Of a stretch of 64,000 nt of DNA, positions 5,061 to 19,574 are shown piece after piece. Made by a program: the position numbers and the translations under genes. The notes beneath the pieces were generated by a model, which made no database searches, was not told the DNA's origin, and worked only from the letters and a program-made list of their open reading frames with translations. The first letter of the stretch is position 1. Each line of letters begins with the position of its first letter. Origin of the DNA: an uncultured Clostridia bacterium (GTDB taxonomy: Bacteria > Bacillota > Clostridia > TANB77 > UBA1234); assembly GCA_934169745.1 (NCBI GenBank), contig CAKPOE010000007.1:3733-67732 (forward strand). Direction: 5' to 3'.

Positions 5061-6290
5061 ATGAAAAAGAAAATAATAATTTTCACAATGTTAATATTTT
5101 TGTTAGTATCTCCTTTTAATGTTTCAGCTGCAGCAGACGATGAGCTAAACGTTGAAGAGAATATTTGGCAAGCTACTGTAGCAGAACTTAATTTAGCAAT
5201 AGGCGACTTTATTGAAAATTTAATTACAAAGGTAGTCGGTCAAAAAATTACTATACAAAATTTAATTTTCAATGAAGTTGATGCGGTAAATGCAAACTTT
5301 TTTGATCCTACCGTGAAAGGCACATCGGTACATAAAACAATACGAAAGGCTGTAAATACGTGGTATGATGTTTTTCTAACCCTAGCAGTTACGTTTTATG
5401 CTATAGCATTGTTGGCTGTTGGAATAAAAATTCTGCTTTCAGACTCAGTTGTAAGTCGTGCAAATTGGAAAGATGTTTCAATAAAATGGCTCAGTGGACT
5501 TATATTGTTGTTTACATTTAATCAAGTAATGAAGTATGCGTTTGAAGTAAATGAAATATTTCTTAAGACGATCAGAAATAGCTTTACCTCTAAAGGACAT
5601 GCAACCGGAACCAATATTGGTGATAAAGATGAATTTAATGATGTACTTTATGAATTTAGAAGTCCTGAGTATCGTTCAAAGTATAGTGGTATTTTGTCGT
5701 ATGGTGGTGCTGAATTGAATCAGGCTTACGTAAAAAGACTTACGGACTATAGCAATACGGCAGATATGATGAGAATTATGAGAGCGTATGCAGGTGTTAC
5801 AAAAAGGATAATTTTTGTTATCATATGGTTTATTTTATTATTCCAATTAATTCTTTTGCTTGTTAAGTATTACAAACGATATTTTGTGCTTGCACTGCTT
5901 ATAACGATGTTTCCACTAGTTATGATTCAATATTTGTTTGACTTAATAAAAGGACAAAATTGCAGTGGACTTACTGCGTGGATGAAAGAGTTCTTTGTAA
6001 ATGTGTTTACACAAACTATACATGCTATAATCTATGCTATAATTGCAGCGGTATGTATTGATAGAGTAAAAGAAGAGCTGCAAACGGGAAAAGGCGAATC
6101 GATGAACTGGTTGATAGTAATAATCGCTATTAACTTTATATTCCAAGGTGAAAAGATAGTTAGAAAAGTACTTGGAGTAGACGGAGCTCAATCAGCAACA
6201 GGAATAAGCGATACGGCTAAGCGAGGAAGCAAAGGAAGAAAAGATGCAGCAAAAGCCGGTGGCAATATGGTTAAGGCGTTTAGAAAATAG
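5061..6290 (+). CDS. VirB6/TrbL-like polytopic membrane protein, paralog 1 of 5 (core-only form)
   Basis: Signal peptide MKKKIIIFTMLIFLLVSPFNVSAAA. It carries the shared core blocks ITIQNLIFNEVD, YAIALLAVGIKILL, WFILLFQLILLLVKYYKRYFVLALLITMFPLVM, WMKEFFVNVFTQTIHAIIYAII and NFIFQGEKIVRKVLG. The VirB6 assignment is an inference from topology and locus position. Confidence 0.65.
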   Translation: MKKKIIIFTMLIFLLVSPFNVSAAADDELNVEENIWQATVAELNLAIGDFIENLITKVVGQKITIQNLIFNEVDAVNANFFDPTVKGTSVHKTIRKAVNTWYDVFLTLAVTFYAIALLAVGIKILLSDSVVSRANWKDVSIKWLSGLILLFTFNQVMKYAFEVNEIFLKTIRNSFTSKGHATGTNIGDKDEFNDVLYEFRSPEYRSKYSGILSYGGAELNQAYVKRLTDYSNTADMMRIMRAYAGVTKRIIFVIIWFILLFQLILLLVKYYKRYFVLALLITMFPLVMIQYLFDLIKGQNCSGLTAWMKEFFVNVFTQTIHAIIYAIIAAVCIDRVKEELQTGKGESMNWLIVIIAINFIFQGEKIVRKVLGVDGAQSATGISDTAKRGSKGRKDAAKAGGNMVKAFRK

Positions 6291-6321
6291 TAGATAATTA
6301 GGCGAAAGGAGAGTGAGGTAA

Positions 6322-19000: not shown

Positions 19001-19574
19001 TCAAAGAATTGACCAAAACAGAAAAGAAGCGGACGCGGCAAGAGAATTTGCAAACCAAGTAATGGAAAGAAACCAAAGTACTGGTCCAACTATTAATGGA
19101 ATGACAGAAAATGACCTTCGTGATTTGGCTGAAATAGAACGTGCTAAGAGTAGACAAGAAGCAATGAGAACTGCTGTTACAACTGGTGCAGCTACGCTTG
19201 GAGTTCCAATTGGGGCAGCCGCTGGTGTTGCGTTTATTGAAGGAGACGATGATAGTAATCCGATTGGAGAGGCCTTACTTGGAGCTACTGCAGGTGCGGG
19301 TGTTATGGATACGGTTGCAGAGAGAGCTACTAGTGGAAATAGTAAAAAGACAAAGACGTACGTTTTAAGAAATCCATATACCGGTGAAGATGAAGAAGTA
19401 ACACTTACGGTTAGCGGAGCATTTAATGAGAGAATATATTCTTTTGATGATCCAGGACTGCCAAAAGAAGTTTCTGCACAGATAAGAGAACAATTTATAG
19501 CTTCAAAGATAGAGAAACAAAGAAAGGCAGAAGCTGAAAAACAAAAAGAAATAGATAAAGAAAACAAAAAATAA
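16002..19574 (+). CDS. VirB6/TrbL-like polytopic membrane protein, paralog 5 of 5 (1190 aa, ~700-aa C-terminal extension)
   Basis: RBS GAAAGGAG plus a signal peptide. Core blocks: VGGGEGVTIDKIIFNQYKPT, YTSILLYIGIQILL, YKRLLTDWVVGVVILFLFPTVI, VVYMIMAWQLLMLIIIYYKRLFMVGFLLVLFPLVALTYALDKVKDGKSQ, WGKEILLNIFIQTFHAIIY and SFLFKGEEIIKKIFG. Confidence 0.65.
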   Translation: MMETLCKKIIILIFIFTTLLGTTLPTNVVYAIGHTGDMTKFKSAGNNVPNKDLDSIIQANTKSEVTVGKDNYTKFKLNEMSTGWYDIYRGELKVLKDGKLQDAPYEYDIHTRTRYYKLDGNTEYYIKTADINNFSYNKYVKEDNKTSFFETVEHMISWFVRTAANGLVKLIDWAVGGGEGVTIDKIIFNQYKPTKLVYFSPEKDALKEGATDPNVNSNYEYPIVHLMSKAITEWFNIFRAVAITGYTSILLYIGIQILLKATAEKQAEYKRLLTDWVVGVVILFLFPTVIKTAIEMNNSLVESIGKSRGILDSDGNVSYQNTTHKQANYTALNPNMSEQELKAYASTFDGNPFSDDNKDYMAIMAKKADKTKRLSYAVVYMIMAWQLLMLIIIYYKRLFMVGFLLVLFPLVALTYALDKVKDGKSQAFNTWGKEILLNIFIQTFHAIIYVFALGVTFEASEVANDWILMIIGVSFLFKGEEIIKKIFGYKSSDTVDSLVSTATKTFATYQVMKKGVLAVKDNFIGKNSHLGRAVEARRNARTYEMMANNFDAFASEPTYNFPAARELPHAPAVMDSEAIQLGNDIQMINHFNVANPAALAMALDRVQNYYQNGGKYMTMLNDLKLDRHQIDGLRRIKNGAIQDVKNGEESATIEQKIKLELETLMPGADVSKMQQALYRQMAMPLNSNHLKRNVFDGFIKKEIMDAEDRMNEINDSIKFSPKSSRTLRDLVDKADDLTYNVYGATQGDKKIVRMAGYVEMLKARDSGDFTAKQLNEAAQYVQQHRYDSKEFGKMIDTLDYDFDEIRHVIAEKTVETYMETDGTYKSFAGMTSDEISDIRAACDLAGDIKDNIENREQRIQDLKKSLKYDSTDFSERQVEAFNGVVDNLLETTYGKRAYTDEERKMAEEVWKLNNSFSFTRDSVVEAYNYVSEHMNDNDLIHKMAEKMGYDIDELGNALKYQESNSWYSNPDIDEVSVNTLIKNKHGLDLNEKDLIDRIKSQRIDQNRKEADAAREFANQVMERNQSTGPTINGMTENDLRDLAEIERAKSRQEAMRTAVTTGAATLGVPIGAAAGVAFIEGDDDSNPIGEALLGATAGAGVMDTVAERATSGNSKKTKTYVLRNPYTGEDEEVTLTVSGAFNERIYSFDDPGLPKEVSAQIREQFIASKIEKQRKAEAEKQKEIDKENKK

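What the first reader, a model, noticed from the sequence alone, without database searches (positions are those of the whole stretch)
5061..19574. Five tandem VirB6-like paralogs with one conserved membrane core and hypervariable ecto- and endo-domains
Five consecutive genes (409, 781, about 409+690 split, 1278 and 1190 aa) share the same ordered blocks:
- ..G(D/E)G......G...TID.IIFN.Y;
- LLY.GI..L(F/L) ... YK..L.DW..G...LF.FP.V(M/I);
- ....W....(Q/E)L......YYKR.F(M/V)......FPLV...Y..DK.KDGK.Q.F..W.KE....N...Q..HA..Y;
- (N/D)W.......FLF.GE.I..KIFG.

Everything else differs. The signal-peptide-led N-terminal domains range from about 60 to 380 aa, and the C-terminal tails from about 40 to 750 aa. 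The only precedent I know for amplified, extended VirB6 genes is the Rickettsiales vir-homolog T4SS. Described Gram-positive systems (PrgH, TcpH, Tn916 Orf15) have one such gene. The pattern suggests diversifying surface modules, for target or host recognition or as self-delivered effector domains, riding on a common channel subunit.
Basis: partly seen in the sequence, partly recalled or inferred. Interest (0 to 1): 0.8.

Follow-up and report, generated by a model that had tools for sequence, protein, structure and literature searches.

The report
Five VirB6-like genes, strain-variable surfaces
An uncultured gut Clostridia bacterium carries, fixed in its chromosome, a stripped-down conjugation-type secretion machine with four pilin genes and five ancient copies of the membrane-channel subunit, and the outward-facing parts of those copies are swapped between strains like surface antigens.

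Summary
Five co-oriented genes at 5061-19574 share a roughly 350-residue membrane core at 30-40% identity. The third gene is split by a real 1-nt insertion.

The core is VirB6/TrbL-like, on moderate evidence:
- The top three PDB fold matches are R388 TrwI/VirB6.
- hhalign matches pSK41 TrsL.
- There are weak TrbL_3, TrbL_4 and mycoplasma ICE CDS16-family hits.
- The genes always sit directly after VirB4.

The full cluster is four VirB2-like pilins, PrgI, TrsD, VirB4 and five VirB6-like genes. I found no coupling protein, relaxase or wall hydrolase nearby, and the flanks are housekeeping genes.

The amplification is old and fixed. Every related locus in this clade shows strict positional orthology. 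The wider family has one copy (Clostridium plasmids, some gut species), three, or four to five.

Within one species, flanks and VirB4 are 96-100% identical. The pilins, N-terminal ectodomains and central loop fall to undetectable-to-84% identity, and discrete N-domain alleles are shuffled against core alleles. The cytoplasmic tails stay conserved.

I rate it a new variant of a known kind, convergent with Rickettsiales Rvh.

The parts
1..396 (+). 3' part of the third VirB2-like pilin gene. The window starts inside it. The full gene is 177 aa in the 99.99%-identical contig L107, which has four pilin genes in all.
   Evidence: Weak PF18895 T4SS_pilin hit. L107 gene map. Identity to L107.
463..1236 (+). 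Fourth pilin-like gene, 257 aa. It has a signal peptide, a low-complexity Gly/Asn/Ser/Thr region, and two pilin-like hydrophobic hairpins.
   Evidence: PF18895 at 1.7e-8 (two stretches) and TrbC/VirB2 at 2.2e-7, both above their cut-offs. Only 73-83% nt identity to the same-species contig L002.
1274..1297 (+). Terminator-like hairpin followed by a T-run, directly after the pilin array. It may act as an attenuator between the pilins and the machinery genes.
   Evidence: Consensus scan only.
1383..1751 (+). PrgI/TrsC-type (VirB3-like) small membrane protein, 122 aa.
   Evidence: Weak PF12666 PrgI hit at 0.011. A homologous gene sits at the same position in 18 loci. The position matches TrsC in pSK41.
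1754..3028 (+). TrsD/TraD-like protein, 424 aa. It resembles a VirB4 N-terminal domain.
   Evidence: NCBIfam TrsD at 0.006 and VirB4_plasma N-part at 4e-4. PF26593 TraC-like hit on the identical-length orthologue. About 100% aa identity to L002, dN/dS 0.01.
3055..5028 (+). VirB4-family ATPase, 657 aa.
   Evidence: NCBIfam conju_CD1110 at 5.9e-59, VirB4_plasma at 2.7e-52 and TraC at 4.5e-41 (all below the equivalog cut-offs), plus Pfam P-loop_TraG. 40-41% identity to the VirB4 of Clostridium plasmids. dN/dS 0.01.
5061..6290 (+). P1, the minimal VirB6-like paralogue, 409 aa: signal peptide, core and a 32-aa basic tail.
   Evidence: Core HMM E 3e-145. AF2 model is all-helical with pLDDT 69.6. The top three PDB fold hits are TrwI/VirB6. 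Orthologues carry a weak TrbL_3 hit.
6322..8667 (+). P2, 781 aa: an acidic ectodomain of about 200 aa, the core, and a 236-aa basic tail with an acidic patch and a Gly/Ala-rich hydrophobic stretch.
   Evidence: Against the same-species allele, identity is 58% (N-domain), 87% (core) and 82% (tail).
8664..9917 (+). P3 N-terminal part, 417 aa: signal peptide, an ectodomain of about 340 aa, and the first conserved helix (GD..TID..IFN). It is cut off from the rest by a +1 insertion near 9893.
   Evidence: The same junction is present in L107 and L108. Intact 1098-1104 aa orthologues exist in L002, L024 and L025.
9931..12003 (+). P3 C-terminal part, 690 aa: pilin-like hairpin, an insertion of about 230 aa in the central loop, the TrbL-like helices, and a very basic tail (pI 11.3).
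   Evidence: The central loop has no detectable nt similarity to the same-species allele.
12023..15859 (+). P4, 1278 aa: an ectodomain of about 165 aa, the core, and a 760-aa basic, helical, low-complexity tail.
   Evidence: The N-domain is 91% identical to L002 but 46% to L024, so alleles differ between strains.
16002..19574 (+). P5, 1190 aa: a small beta-sandwich ectodomain, the core, and a 690-aa all-alpha tail predicted with high confidence.
   Evidence: AF2 model. No informative PDB match. At least five N-domain allele classes are shuffled against two core alleles.
19586..19630 (+). Strong hairpin with a 20-bp stem, directly after the P5 stop codon. It is the likely end of the operon and lies between convergent genes.

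Best explanation
**What it is.** The five genes are ancient, non-redundant VirB6/TrbL-like subunits of a chromosomally fixed type IV secretion-type machine derived from a conjugation system. The order of the machinery genes matches the pGO1/pIP501-like MPF_FATA type. The complete cluster is four VirB2-like pilins, PrgI (VirB3-like), TrsD, VirB4 and five VirB6-like genes, probably one operon closed by a strong terminator.

**Domain layout of each paralogue.** In order along the protein:
- a signal peptide;
- an acidic, extracytoplasmic N-domain, almost absent in P1;
- a pilin-like two-helix hairpin;
- an exposed central loop, which is very large in P3;
- a TrbL-like helical bundle carrying R..PLV..D..W..E;
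- a cytoplasmic tail, basic in P1-P4, up to 760 aa long.

**How it most likely works (inferred).** VirB4, with TrsD and PrgI, energises assembly of a VirB2-type pilus or contact structure on a membrane platform built from the VirB6-like proteins. Solved VirB6 platforms are pentamers (my own knowledge of the R388 structure), and here five distinct orthologous paralogues are kept in fixed order. They most likely co-assemble as a hetero-oligomer.

**Surface versus interior.** The exposed parts are the pilins, the N-ectodomains and the central loops. I read them as the recognition or antigenic surface, exchanged between strains by recombination. The transmembrane bundle, the tails and the ATPase stay under strong purifying selection.

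**Function.** No coupling protein, relaxase or wall hydrolase lies in or near the cluster, so it is probably not a self-transmissible conjugation system. It is more likely a contact, adhesion or exchange apparatus, comparable to the Patescibacteria T4SS.
For: **Shown: homology and anatomy of the five genes**
-.

**Shown: VirB6/TrbL-likeness**
- The top three of 350,542 PDB chains are R388 TrwI/VirB6 (prob 0.97 for the top two, 0.41 for the third; TM-score on the target 0.48-0.52 for the top two).
- hhalign against pSK41 TrsL (annotated as TrbL family) gives E 8.6e-5 over TM3-TM6. There is no match to TrsF.
- Weak hits to TrbL_3 and TrbL_4 and to NCBIfam Mbov_0396/MMCAP2_0566. The latter corresponds to mycoplasma ICE CDS16, which PMC12857230 calls the likely VirB6-like component.

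**Shown: gene set, order and chromosomal context**
- The same set and order occur in about 20 loci, with no T4CP or relaxase.
- Housekeeping flanks, with synteny kept in related strains.

**Shown: the array is old, but copy number varies in the wider family**
- Strict positional orthology P1..P5.
- One copy in Clostridium plasmids, which also carry a hydrolase and (in L022) a T4CP nearby.
- One or three copies in other gut species.

**Shown: a functional, selected system**
- dN/dS is 0.01 for VirB4 and TrsD and about 0.1 for the cores.

**Shown: surface hypervariability within one species**
-.
- Comparable variable cassettes lie directly after VirB4 in three other species.

**Shown: topology clues**
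- Signal peptides and hydropathy.
- Acidic N-domains, and basic tails in P1-P4 (the P5 tail is acidic, pI 5.1).
- A family member carries an N-terminal NlpC/P60 domain, which must act outside the cell.

**Inferred, not shown**
- The hetero-oligomer, the pilus, and the function.
Against: **VirB6 assignment**
- No window protein reaches a curated cut-off for any VirB6/TrbL model.
- The Foldseek E-values are 0.13-0.19, which is not significant on their own.
- The P1 model has only moderate confidence (pLDDT 69.6).

**Hetero-pentamer idea**
- Relatives with three copies do not fit a simple five-position ring.
- The P3 gene is frameshifted in this strain lineage, so either a split P3 still works or P3 is dispensable.

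**Missing components**
- I searched only about 7 kb upstream and 44 kb downstream for a T4CP or relaxase, not the whole genome.
- No wall hydrolase is in the cluster, although a thick-walled host would seem to need one.

**No direct evidence of activity**
- I have no expression data, and nothing shows that a pilus is made.

**Host**
- The host's taxonomy below 'Clostridia' and its wall type are unknown.
Confidence: 0.6

Rival explanations
1. It is the mating-pair-formation module of an integrative conjugative element. The coupling protein, relaxase and oriT are encoded elsewhere in the genome, and the five paralogues broaden recipient range.
For: - The nearest cultured relatives are plasmid T4SSs: VirB4 is 40-41% identical, the gene order is the same, and one plasmid (L022) has a T4CP nearby.
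- The gene order matches the conjugative pSK41 trs operon.
- Variable surface parts could mediate recipient recognition or surface exclusion.
Against: - No T4CP, relaxase, integrase or hydrolase lies within about 7 kb upstream or 44 kb downstream. Both flanks are housekeeping genes.
- The chromosomal position is the same in related strains.
- The module is conserved across at least 16 species-level genomes, with divergence that looks vertical.
- GC content and GC skew are indistinguishable from the flanks.
Confidence: 0.12
2. It is a DNA import or exchange machine of the archaeal Ced/Ted or Helicobacter ComB kind. These consist of pilin, a VirB6-like channel and a VirB4-like ATPase, with no coupling protein or relaxase. 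The variable surfaces would give strain-specific partner recognition.
For: - The component list (VirB2-like pilins, VirB6-like, VirB4, nothing else recognisable) equals the Ced/Ted minimal set as described in PMC9905601 and PMC12102498.
- VirB4 gives a weak NCBIfam CedD hit at 5e-5.
- The tails of P1-P4 are very basic (pI 9.6-11.3) and could bind nucleic acid.
Against: - There is no specific homology to Ced proteins beyond the shared superfamily.
- Basic tails are equally explained by the positive-inside rule.
- There is no functional evidence.
- In Patescibacteria the comparable T4SS is essential independently of competence (PMC12857230).
Confidence: 0.15
3. The five paralogues are alternative, interchangeable channel subunits. 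Each would assemble its own homo-oligomeric machine with the shared VirB4, giving five machines with different surface specificities rather than one hetero-oligomer.
For: - The relatives with one copy presumably use homo-oligomers.
- The three-copy relatives do not fit a fixed five-position ring.
- The strain lineage of the window carries a split P3.
- Each paralogue has its own ectodomain and tail.
Against: - Number, order and orthology are strictly conserved across a deep clade. Redundant alternatives would be expected to vary in copy number by gain and loss.
- P1 lacks both an ectodomain and a tail, so it looks like a structural subunit rather than a 'specificity' variant.
- The genes are tightly packed, apparently in one operon.
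Confidence: 0.2
4. The core is not a VirB6 homologue at all. It would be a separate family of pilin-fusion membrane anchors that merely sit next to VirB4.
For: - No curated VirB6/TrbL model is passed.
- 31 of 38 members hit the pilin model PF18895 rather than TrbL.
- A PDB sequence search finds nothing.
Against: - The best fold matches in the whole PDB are VirB6.
- hhalign against TrsL aligns the conserved R..PLV..D..W..E block.
- Homologues give TrbL_3 and TrbL_4 hits.
- There are matches to the mycoplasma CDS16 family.
- No other VirB6 candidate exists in the cluster.
Confidence: 0.08

Closest known systems
Rickettsiales vir homologue (Rvh) T4SS: RvhB6a-e in Rickettsia, four VirB6 paralogues in Ehrlichia/Anaplasma
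   Same: - Five tandem, extended VirB6-like genes of 674-1154 aa, conserved only in the VirB6/TrbL membrane domain, with divergent flanking regions (PMC2653234).
- Chromosomal and vertically inherited.
- In Anaplasmataceae the pilin genes are duplicated as well (PMC12102498).
   Different: - Rvh is a diderm P-type system with VirB8-11 and VirD4. The window's system is monoderm-type, has none of these nearby, and shows PrgI/TrsD gene order.
- The amplifications are independent (different phyla; the cores are not alignable by BLAST or HMM here).
- The strain-level shuffling of ectodomain alleles shown here is not something I know to be described for Rvh.
Patescibacteria (CPR) chromosomal T4SS
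   Same: - The same part list: an array of sequence-divergent VirB2-like pilins, PrgI/VirB3, TrsD, VirB4 and VirB6.
- Chromosomal, mostly without a relaxase, and MPF_FATA-derived (PMC12102498, PMC12857230).
- Pilin diversity has been proposed to reflect host or partner adaptation.
   Different: - The host here is a Clostridia lineage. L001 carries the spore gene YpeB next to its array.
- One VirB6 is described for S. epibionticum; five are present here.
- I did not test whether this VirB4 falls in the Patescibacteria clade.
- VirB1-, VirB8- and VirD4-like genes are reported for the S. epibionticum locus but were not found here.
T4SS of Clostridium plasmids pINGR16-02E1 (C. botulinum, NZ_KT897276) and p1 (C. 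beijerinckii, NZ_CP107023), and the pSK41/pGO1 trs operon
   Same: - These are the closest cultured relatives. VirB4 is 40-41% identical.
- The gene order is the same: pilin-like, small membrane protein, TrsD-like, VirB4, then a VirB6-like gene that matches the core HMM end to end (E 6.5e-14).
- pSK41 has TrsB (annotated as CagC/VirB2-like), TrsC, TrsD and TrsE in the same order, and its TrsL aligns with the core.
   Different: - The Clostridium plasmid loci have one pilin-like gene, one VirB6-like gene and a wall hydrolase (C39_2 + 3D), and one of them (L022) has a T4CP nearby. pSK41 likewise has a hydrolase (TrsG, CHAP), a T4CP and relaxases.
- In pSK41 the TrbL-like gene (TrsL) is far downstream, and the slot after VirB4 is filled by the unrelated TrsF.
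Mycoplasma ICE CDS16 (Mbov_0396 / MMCAP2_0566 families)
   Same: - It gives the best curated-family hits of the core (E 1e-5 to 4e-9).
- It is a polytopic membrane protein encoded next to VirB4 (Mbov_0397), in a minimal monoderm T4SS without VirB1/VirB8 (PMC12857230).
   Different: - The scores are far below the family cut-offs (25-36 bits against 70-90).
- It is single-copy, and part of a mobile ICE that has VirD4.
Bartonella Trw T4SS
   Same: - Tandem amplification of surface-exposed pilus components and of trwI (VirB6).
- No coupling protein.
- Interpreted as diversification of host-binding surfaces. This is my own knowledge; the pilin part is mentioned in PMC12102498.
   Different: - It is a diderm system derived from R388.
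- The amplified copies are recent and similar to each other, not ancient 30-40% identical paralogues with added domains.

Membership tests
VirB6/TrbL family (T4SS inner-membrane platform subunit) | Polytopic membrane protein with five or more hydrophobic helices | tested here: met
   Hydropathy analysis finds 5-6 hydrophobic helices after the signal peptide in every paralogue. The AF2 models are all-helical in the core.
VirB6/TrbL family (T4SS inner-membrane platform subunit) | Significant match to a curated VirB6/TrbL sequence model | tested here: inconclusive
   - No window protein passes any model.
- Orthologues carry precomputed weak PF19590 TrbL_3 hits.
- 3 of 38 members hit TrbL_4, at best 4.4e-5.
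- hhalign against pSK41 TrsL gives prob 60%, E 8.6e-5.
- A PDB sequence search finds nothing.
VirB6/TrbL family (T4SS inner-membrane platform subunit) | Fold similar to solved VirB6 (R388 TrwI) | tested here: inconclusive
   Ranks 1-3 of the PDB search are TrwI chains (8rt9_F, 8rtd_L, 7o3v_J). Prob is 0.97 and the TM-score on the target 0.48-0.52 for the first two. However E is 0.13-0.74, rmsd is about 11 A, and the model pLDDT is 69.6.
VirB6/TrbL family (T4SS inner-membrane platform subunit) | Encoded within a T4SS cluster next to VirB4 | tested here: met
   The array follows VirB4 directly in the window and in every related locus that includes VirB4.
VirB6/TrbL family (T4SS inner-membrane platform subunit) | Conserved essential Trp in the membrane/cytoplasmic region (PMC2653234) | tested here: inconclusive
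   An invariant Trp (in the W.KE block) exists in all five cores. It aligns with a Trp of TrsL in hhalign. I did not establish that it is equivalent to the VirB6 Trp of A. tumefaciens.
VirB6/TrbL family (T4SS inner-membrane platform subunit) | Forms the oligomeric (pentameric) base on which the pilin polymerises | not testable with these tools
   No multimer prediction or experiment was available.
Self-transmissible MPF_FATA conjugation system (pGO1/pIP501 type) | VirB4 ATPase preceded by PrgI/TrsC-like and TrsD-like genes | tested here: met
   The order is the same as in pSK41.
Self-transmissible MPF_FATA conjugation system (pGO1/pIP501 type) | Coupling protein (VirD4/TrsK) and relaxase associated with the locus | tested here: not met
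   Neither was found in the cluster, in about 7 kb upstream, in 44 kb downstream, or within 10 kb on each side in about 20 related loci. The rest of the genome was not searched.
Self-transmissible MPF_FATA conjugation system (pGO1/pIP501 type) | Dedicated peptidoglycan hydrolase (VirB1 analogue) | tested here: not met
   No hydrolase domain was detected in any cluster protein of the window. Relatives do have one, either as a separate gene or fused to a VirB6-like N-domain (P0253).
Patescibacteria-type chromosomal T4SS | Array of divergent VirB2-like pilins beside PrgI, TrsD, VirB4 and VirB6, without a relaxase | tested here: met
   Four pilins here and three to five in relatives. The definition is taken from PMC12102498.
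Patescibacteria-type chromosomal T4SS | VirB4 inside the monophyletic Patescibacteria clade | not tested
   No Patescibacteria VirB4 sequences were fetched, and the host is a Clostridia lineage.
Rickettsiales Rvh-type amplified VirB6 | Diderm P-type T4SS scaffold (VirB8-11, VirD4) with rvhB6 paralogues sharing a common origin | tested here: not met
   No VirB8-11 or VirD4 is present, and the gene order is that of a monoderm system. The resemblance is convergent.

The most novel reading that the evidence does not exclude
The five paralogues form one hetero-pentameric VirB6 ring in a non-conjugative pilus or contact machine that is widespread in human and animal gut Clostridia. Their recombination-shuffled ectodomains and the pilin array would replace the missing VirB5-type tip or adhesin and decide which partner cell, host surface or phage the strain engages. 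This would be a Gram-positive counterpart of Rickettsial Rvh and Bartonella Trw, and a non-CPR example of the 'pilus-making monoderm T4SS' so far reported only for Patescibacteria.
Probability: 0.25. Interest if true: 0.85.

Novelty: new variant of a known kind. Interest (0 to 1): 0.72.

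Why it matters
A recent review (PMC12857230) lists three relevant gaps:
- What the extra domains of 'extended VirB6' proteins do.
- Whether Gram-positive T4SSs have evolved beyond conjugation.
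- That VirB2-type pilins in monoderm T4SSs are known only from Patescibacteria.

This locus bears on all three. It is a chromosomal, relaxase-less, pilin-array T4SS in Clostridia with five extended VirB6 proteins. Natural variation already marks which parts face outward and are under diversifying pressure.

It is also common:
- at least 559 related stretches in one metagenome collection;
- 4363 protein clusters at 50% identity;
- sources include human (among them Hadza), rabbit, sheep, deer and shrew guts.

If it mediates strain-specific contact, exchange or phage susceptibility, it would be a major unannotated determinant of strain ecology in the gut. The independent arrival at five VirB6 paralogues in Rickettsia and here, together with pentameric VirB6 in solved structures, gives a testable structural hypothesis.

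Tried and rejected
**Searches that found nothing useful**
- Megablast of 1-20000 against plasmids and phages: no match.
- Sequence search of the core profile against all PDB chains: nothing at E <= 10.
- Foldseek of the full-length P5 model against the PDB: only generic helical repeats such as talin, importins and SMC. No adhesin or toxin fold.
- Pfam and NCBIfam on the N-domains and tails: nothing credible. A UBA_2 hit at 4e-4 in the P5 tail is below its cut-off.
- Proteins downstream of the single VirB6 in other species (about 310, 900 and 450 aa) are not homologous to the window's N-domains or tails.
- Cluster look-up for organism names: none given. Taxonomy below 'Clostridia' stays unknown.
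- Literature searches found no description of this system.

**Comparisons that came back negative**
- N-domains of different paralogues compared pairwise: no similarity.
- Homology to TrsF, the gene at the equivalent position in pSK41: none.
- Identification with the clostridial cst/Pcp loci: rejected, because the gene order differs.

**Technical failure**
I replaced it with an alignment of P1 orthologues.

**Explanations considered and rejected**
- Decaying ICE remnant: rejected, because the ORFs are intact across species and dN/dS is 0.01-0.1.
- Assembly artefact for the P3 frameshift: rejected, because the junction is identical in L107 and L108.
- Diversity-generating retroelement or point-mutation hypervariation: rejected. 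Divergence includes indels and synonymous saturation (dS about 1), the alleles are discrete and shuffled, and no reverse transcriptase is nearby.

Full report

Yes. ORF listing and translation give five consecutive + strand genes:

| Gene | Coordinates | Length |
|---|---|---|
| P1 | 5061-6290 | 409 aa |
| P2 | 6322-8667 | 781 aa, TTG start |
| P3 | 8664-9917 plus 9931-12003 | 417 + 690 aa |
| P4 | 12023-15859 | 1278 aa |
| P5 | 16002-19574 | 1190 aa |

- Alignment of the shared region (A2) shows 30-40% pairwise identity and 35 invariant columns.
- An HMM built from that alignment finds each gene at E 1e-59 to 1e-148.
- P3 is split by one extra base near 9893, relative to intact 1098-1104 aa orthologues.
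- The same junction occurs in two further assemblies from other samples that are 99.99% identical to the window (L107 and L108). It is therefore a real feature of this strain lineage.
- N-domains of different paralogues are unrelated in sequence.
- The long tails share only a Gly/Ala-rich hydrophobic stretch near their C-termini.

**2. What surrounds the five genes?**

Upstream lie, in order:
- two VirB2-like pilin genes, the first cut by the window edge; the complete array has four;
- a PrgI/VirB3-like gene at 1383-1751;
- a TrsD/TraC-like gene at 1754-3028;
- a VirB4 ATPase at 3055-5028.

Other features:
- Intergenic gaps are -4 to 32 nt, except 142 nt before P5.
- A terminator-like hairpin follows the pilins, and a 20-bp-stem hairpin follows P5.
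- Further upstream in L107 are an ABC ATPase, an acyltransferase and a diacylglycerol kinase.
- Downstream in the window are TruA, LexA, a 3D-domain protein, a permease, RF2, S12, S7, EF-G, EF-Tu, PlsX, RsmB, RlmN and a PASTA kinase.
- GC content and GC skew do not differ from the flanks.
- I found no coupling protein, relaxase, integrase or wall hydrolase.

**3. Is the core VirB6-like?**

The evidence is moderate but consistent.

No window protein passes a curated model, but:
- P1, P2, P3C and P5 hit the mycoplasma ICE families Mbov_0396 and MMCAP2_0566 (E 1e-3 to 4e-9). These correspond to CDS16, next to the ICE VirB4, which PMC12857230 calls the likely VirB6-like component.
- Orthologues carry weak TrbL_3 hits, and 3 of 38 members hit TrbL_4.
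- An AF2 model of P1 (pLDDT 69.6), searched against 350,542 PDB chains, returns R388 TrwI/VirB6 as ranks 1-3. Prob is 0.97 and the TM-score on the target 0.48-0.52 for the first two. E is only 0.13-0.74.
- hhalign of the family alignment against pSK41 TrsL, annotated as TrbL family, gives E 8.6e-5. It aligns the conserved R..PLV..D..W..E block.
- TrsF, which occupies the post-VirB4 slot in pSK41, shows nothing.

In addition, the first hydrophobic hairpin of the core resembles the cognate pilins. 31 of 38 members give weak PF18895 hits, and pilin ORFs hit the core HMM at positions of about 60-135.

**4. How widespread is it, and is the copy number fixed?**

- A full scan of 1.84 billion representative proteins finds 4363 clusters at E <= 1e-3 and 2288 at <= 1e-30, with lengths 347-2218 aa.
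- Sixteen species-level genomes, all uncultured gut Clostridia MAGs, were recovered with a P1 profile.
- All loci share the module of 3-5 pilins, PrgI, TrsD, VirB4 and a tandem VirB6-like array.
- Position i always best matches the window's Pi. The five-gene array therefore predates these species.
- In the wider family the number differs:
  - one copy in C. botulinum and C. beijerinckii plasmids, which also have a hydrolase and (in L022) a nearby T4CP;
  - one copy in several gut species whose VirB4 is about 72% identical;
  - three copies in others.
- Some family members carry an N-terminal NlpC/P60 domain (P0253). This places the N-domain outside the cell and shows that it can carry accessory T4SS functions.

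**5. Variation between strains**

This is the most informative result.

Contigs L002 and L024-L026 come from the same species as the window. Flanking housekeeping genes, TrsD and VirB4 are 96-100% identical in nucleotides, and VirB4 has dS 0.12 with about 100% aa identity.

Inside that frame:

| Region | Nucleotide identity to the same-species allele |
|---|---|
| Pilins | 73-84% |
| P1 core | 82-90% |
| P2 N-domain | 74% |
| P3 N-domain and central loop | undetectable to 74% |
| P5 N-domain | nothing beyond the signal peptide |
| C-terminal tails | mostly 95-100% |

- N-domains are 43-58% identical in amino acids, with indels, dS of about 0.9-1.0 and dN/dS of 0.3-0.64.
- Cores have dS 0.46-0.72 and mostly dN/dS of about 0.1 (0.39 for the P3 core, which includes the large loop).
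- Tails have dS 0.1-0.3.
- The alignments show identical signal peptides, diverged ectodomains and central loops, and near-identical TM3-TM6 and tails.
- Within one 90%-identity cluster of P5 there are at least five discrete N-domain classes (28-52% identity between classes; 141-253 aa). They are combined with either of two core alleles. For example, P0265 and P0268 carry the long N-domain on the window-type core.
- This pattern indicates recombinational cassette exchange, not point-mutation drift.
- Three other species show the same picture: a roughly 7-9 kb block directly after VirB4 that is unalignable or only 70-85% identical, between flanks that are 99-100% identical.
- Between species, N-domains come and go. 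Their lengths range over 33-176 aa in P1, 29-223 in P2, 236-367 in P3 and 9-401 in P4.
- Only 19-57% of orthologous N-domain pairs are still detectable by BLAST, against 100% of cores.

**6. Structure of the extra domains**

- A full-length P5 model shows a small beta-sandwich at about residues 60-140.
- The helical core follows.
- Residues of about 560-1020 form an all-alpha domain predicted with high confidence (pLDDT 85-95).
- No informative PDB match was found.
- N-domains are acidic (pI 4.2-4.8 for P2-P4, 6.7 for P5). The tails of P1-P4 are basic (pI 9.6-11.3), and the P5 tail is acidic (pI 5.1). For P1-P4 this fits N-domain outside and tail inside.
- I could not settle whether the last short hydrophobic helix crosses the membrane. 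Five spans with the N-terminus out and the C-terminus in, as in A. tumefaciens VirB6, fits best (inference).

**7. Interpretation**

*Shown*
- This is a chromosomal, vertically inherited T4SS-type gene set under purifying selection. Its only recognisable parts are VirB2-like pilins, VirB3-like, TrsD, VirB4 and five VirB6-like proteins.
- Its exposed parts are exchanged between strains.

*Inferred*
- VirB4 drives assembly of a pilus or contact structure on a VirB6 platform.
- Solved VirB6 is pentameric (my own knowledge of the R388 structure; several TrwI chains appear in 7o3v and 8rt9). Five distinct orthologues are retained in fixed order here. A hetero-oligomeric ring is the most economical reading.
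- The ectodomains and pilins would serve as the specificity or antigenic surface.

*Weak points*
- The three-copy relatives and the split P3 count against a strict five-position ring.
- Only about 7 kb upstream and 44 kb downstream were checked for a T4CP or relaxase.

*Function*
- Contact or adhesion, DNA import of the Ced/Ted type, and protein delivery all remain open.
- I found nothing to suggest that the tails are delivered effectors.

**8. Comparison with known systems**

- The closest in architecture is the Patescibacteria T4SS: a pilin array, PrgI, TrsD, VirB4 and VirB6, chromosomal and mostly without a relaxase (PMC12102498).
- PMC12857230 states that VirB2-type pilins in monoderm T4SSs are otherwise unknown. 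Against that, NCBI annotates pSK41 TrsB as CagC family, which is VirB2-like.
- The closest in the amplification itself is Rickettsia RvhB6a-e: five tandem extended VirB6 proteins that share only the membrane domain (PMC2653234). That case is convergent.
- The closest in sequence are the single-copy systems of the Clostridium plasmids.
- I found no description of this gut Clostridia system in the searchable literature.

**9. Verdict**

It is correct on VirB6-likeness and on diversifying surface modules. It is not correct on hypervariable endo-domains or on the uniqueness of the precedent.
- Novelty: a new variant of a known kind.
- Interest is fairly high. The system is common in gut metagenomes, it extends pilin-bearing non-conjugative T4SSs to Clostridia, and it makes the open question of what extended VirB6 domains do directly testable.

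Noticed in passing
window 9885-9900 (junction of 8664-9917 and 9931-12003): The P3 split is a single inserted base relative to intact orthologues. It is identical in two other metagenome assemblies from different samples (L107 and L108). It is therefore a real strain-lineage mutation, giving either a two-piece P3 or a pseudogene.
   Followed up: yes
window 1-1236; L107 6034-8182: The pilin array has four genes (111, 116, 177 and 257 aa). The last is a double pilin with a long Gly/Asn/Ser/Thr-rich linker. The pilins are only 73-84% identical in nucleotides between strains whose VirB4 is 96-99% identical.
   Followed up: partly
window 1274-1297 and 19586-19630: A terminator-like hairpin lies directly after the last pilin gene and may act as an attenuator giving excess pilin transcript. 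A very strong 20-bp-stem hairpin lies between P5 and the convergent downstream gene.
   Followed up: no
core of P1-P5, e.g. window 5360-5540 (P1 residues about 100-160): The first two-helix hairpin of each VirB6-like core resembles the cognate pilins. 31 of 38 members give weak PF18895 hits, and pilin ORFs hit the core HMM at positions of about 60-135. This suggests a pilin-like module fused to a TrbL-like bundle.
   Followed up: partly
window about 8285-8440 (P2), 11650-11790 (P3), 15545-15670 (P4), 19120-19240 (P5): All four long tails contain a Gly/Ala-rich hydrophobic stretch near the C-terminus, resembling a glycine zipper. P4 and P5 align there at E 2e-4. Its function is unknown; it may be an extra membrane-associated segment.
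   Followed up: partly
window 19639-20700 (- strand): This is a 353-aa protein with no family match, convergent with P5. A homologue (358 aa, + strand) sits directly after the array in the distant locus L001, so it may belong to the system.
   Followed up: partly
L064/L069, L055/L056/L060, L080/L082/L091 (about 7-9 kb after VirB4): In gut species with a single VirB6-like gene, a block directly after VirB4 is unalignable or only 70-85% identical between strains whose flanks are 99-100% identical. The block holds the VirB6-like gene and several genes after it; in L064 these are proteins of about 313, 886 and 431 aa, the 886-aa one with glucosaminidase and NlpC/P60 hits. It behaves as a replaceable cassette.
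   Followed up: partly
P0253, P0258 (family members): These VirB6-like proteins have an NlpC/P60 peptidoglycan hydrolase domain in the N-terminal ectodomain (residues 88-186 of P0253). A VirB1-type function is fused to the channel subunit.
   Followed up: partly
window 22534-23262 (- strand): A 3D-domain protein lies 3 kb downstream of the array. The wall hydrolase of the related Clostridium plasmid T4SS also ends in a 3D domain (L021 15665-17713). I did not examine whether there is a link.
   Followed up: no
whole window: Almost all genes are on the + strand and GC skew is positive throughout. The T4SS cluster is co-oriented with the str/EF-Tu ribosomal operon 9-13 kb away. This recalls the remark in PMC12102498 that Patescibacteria T4SS loci often sit at highly expressed positions near the origin.
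   Followed up: no
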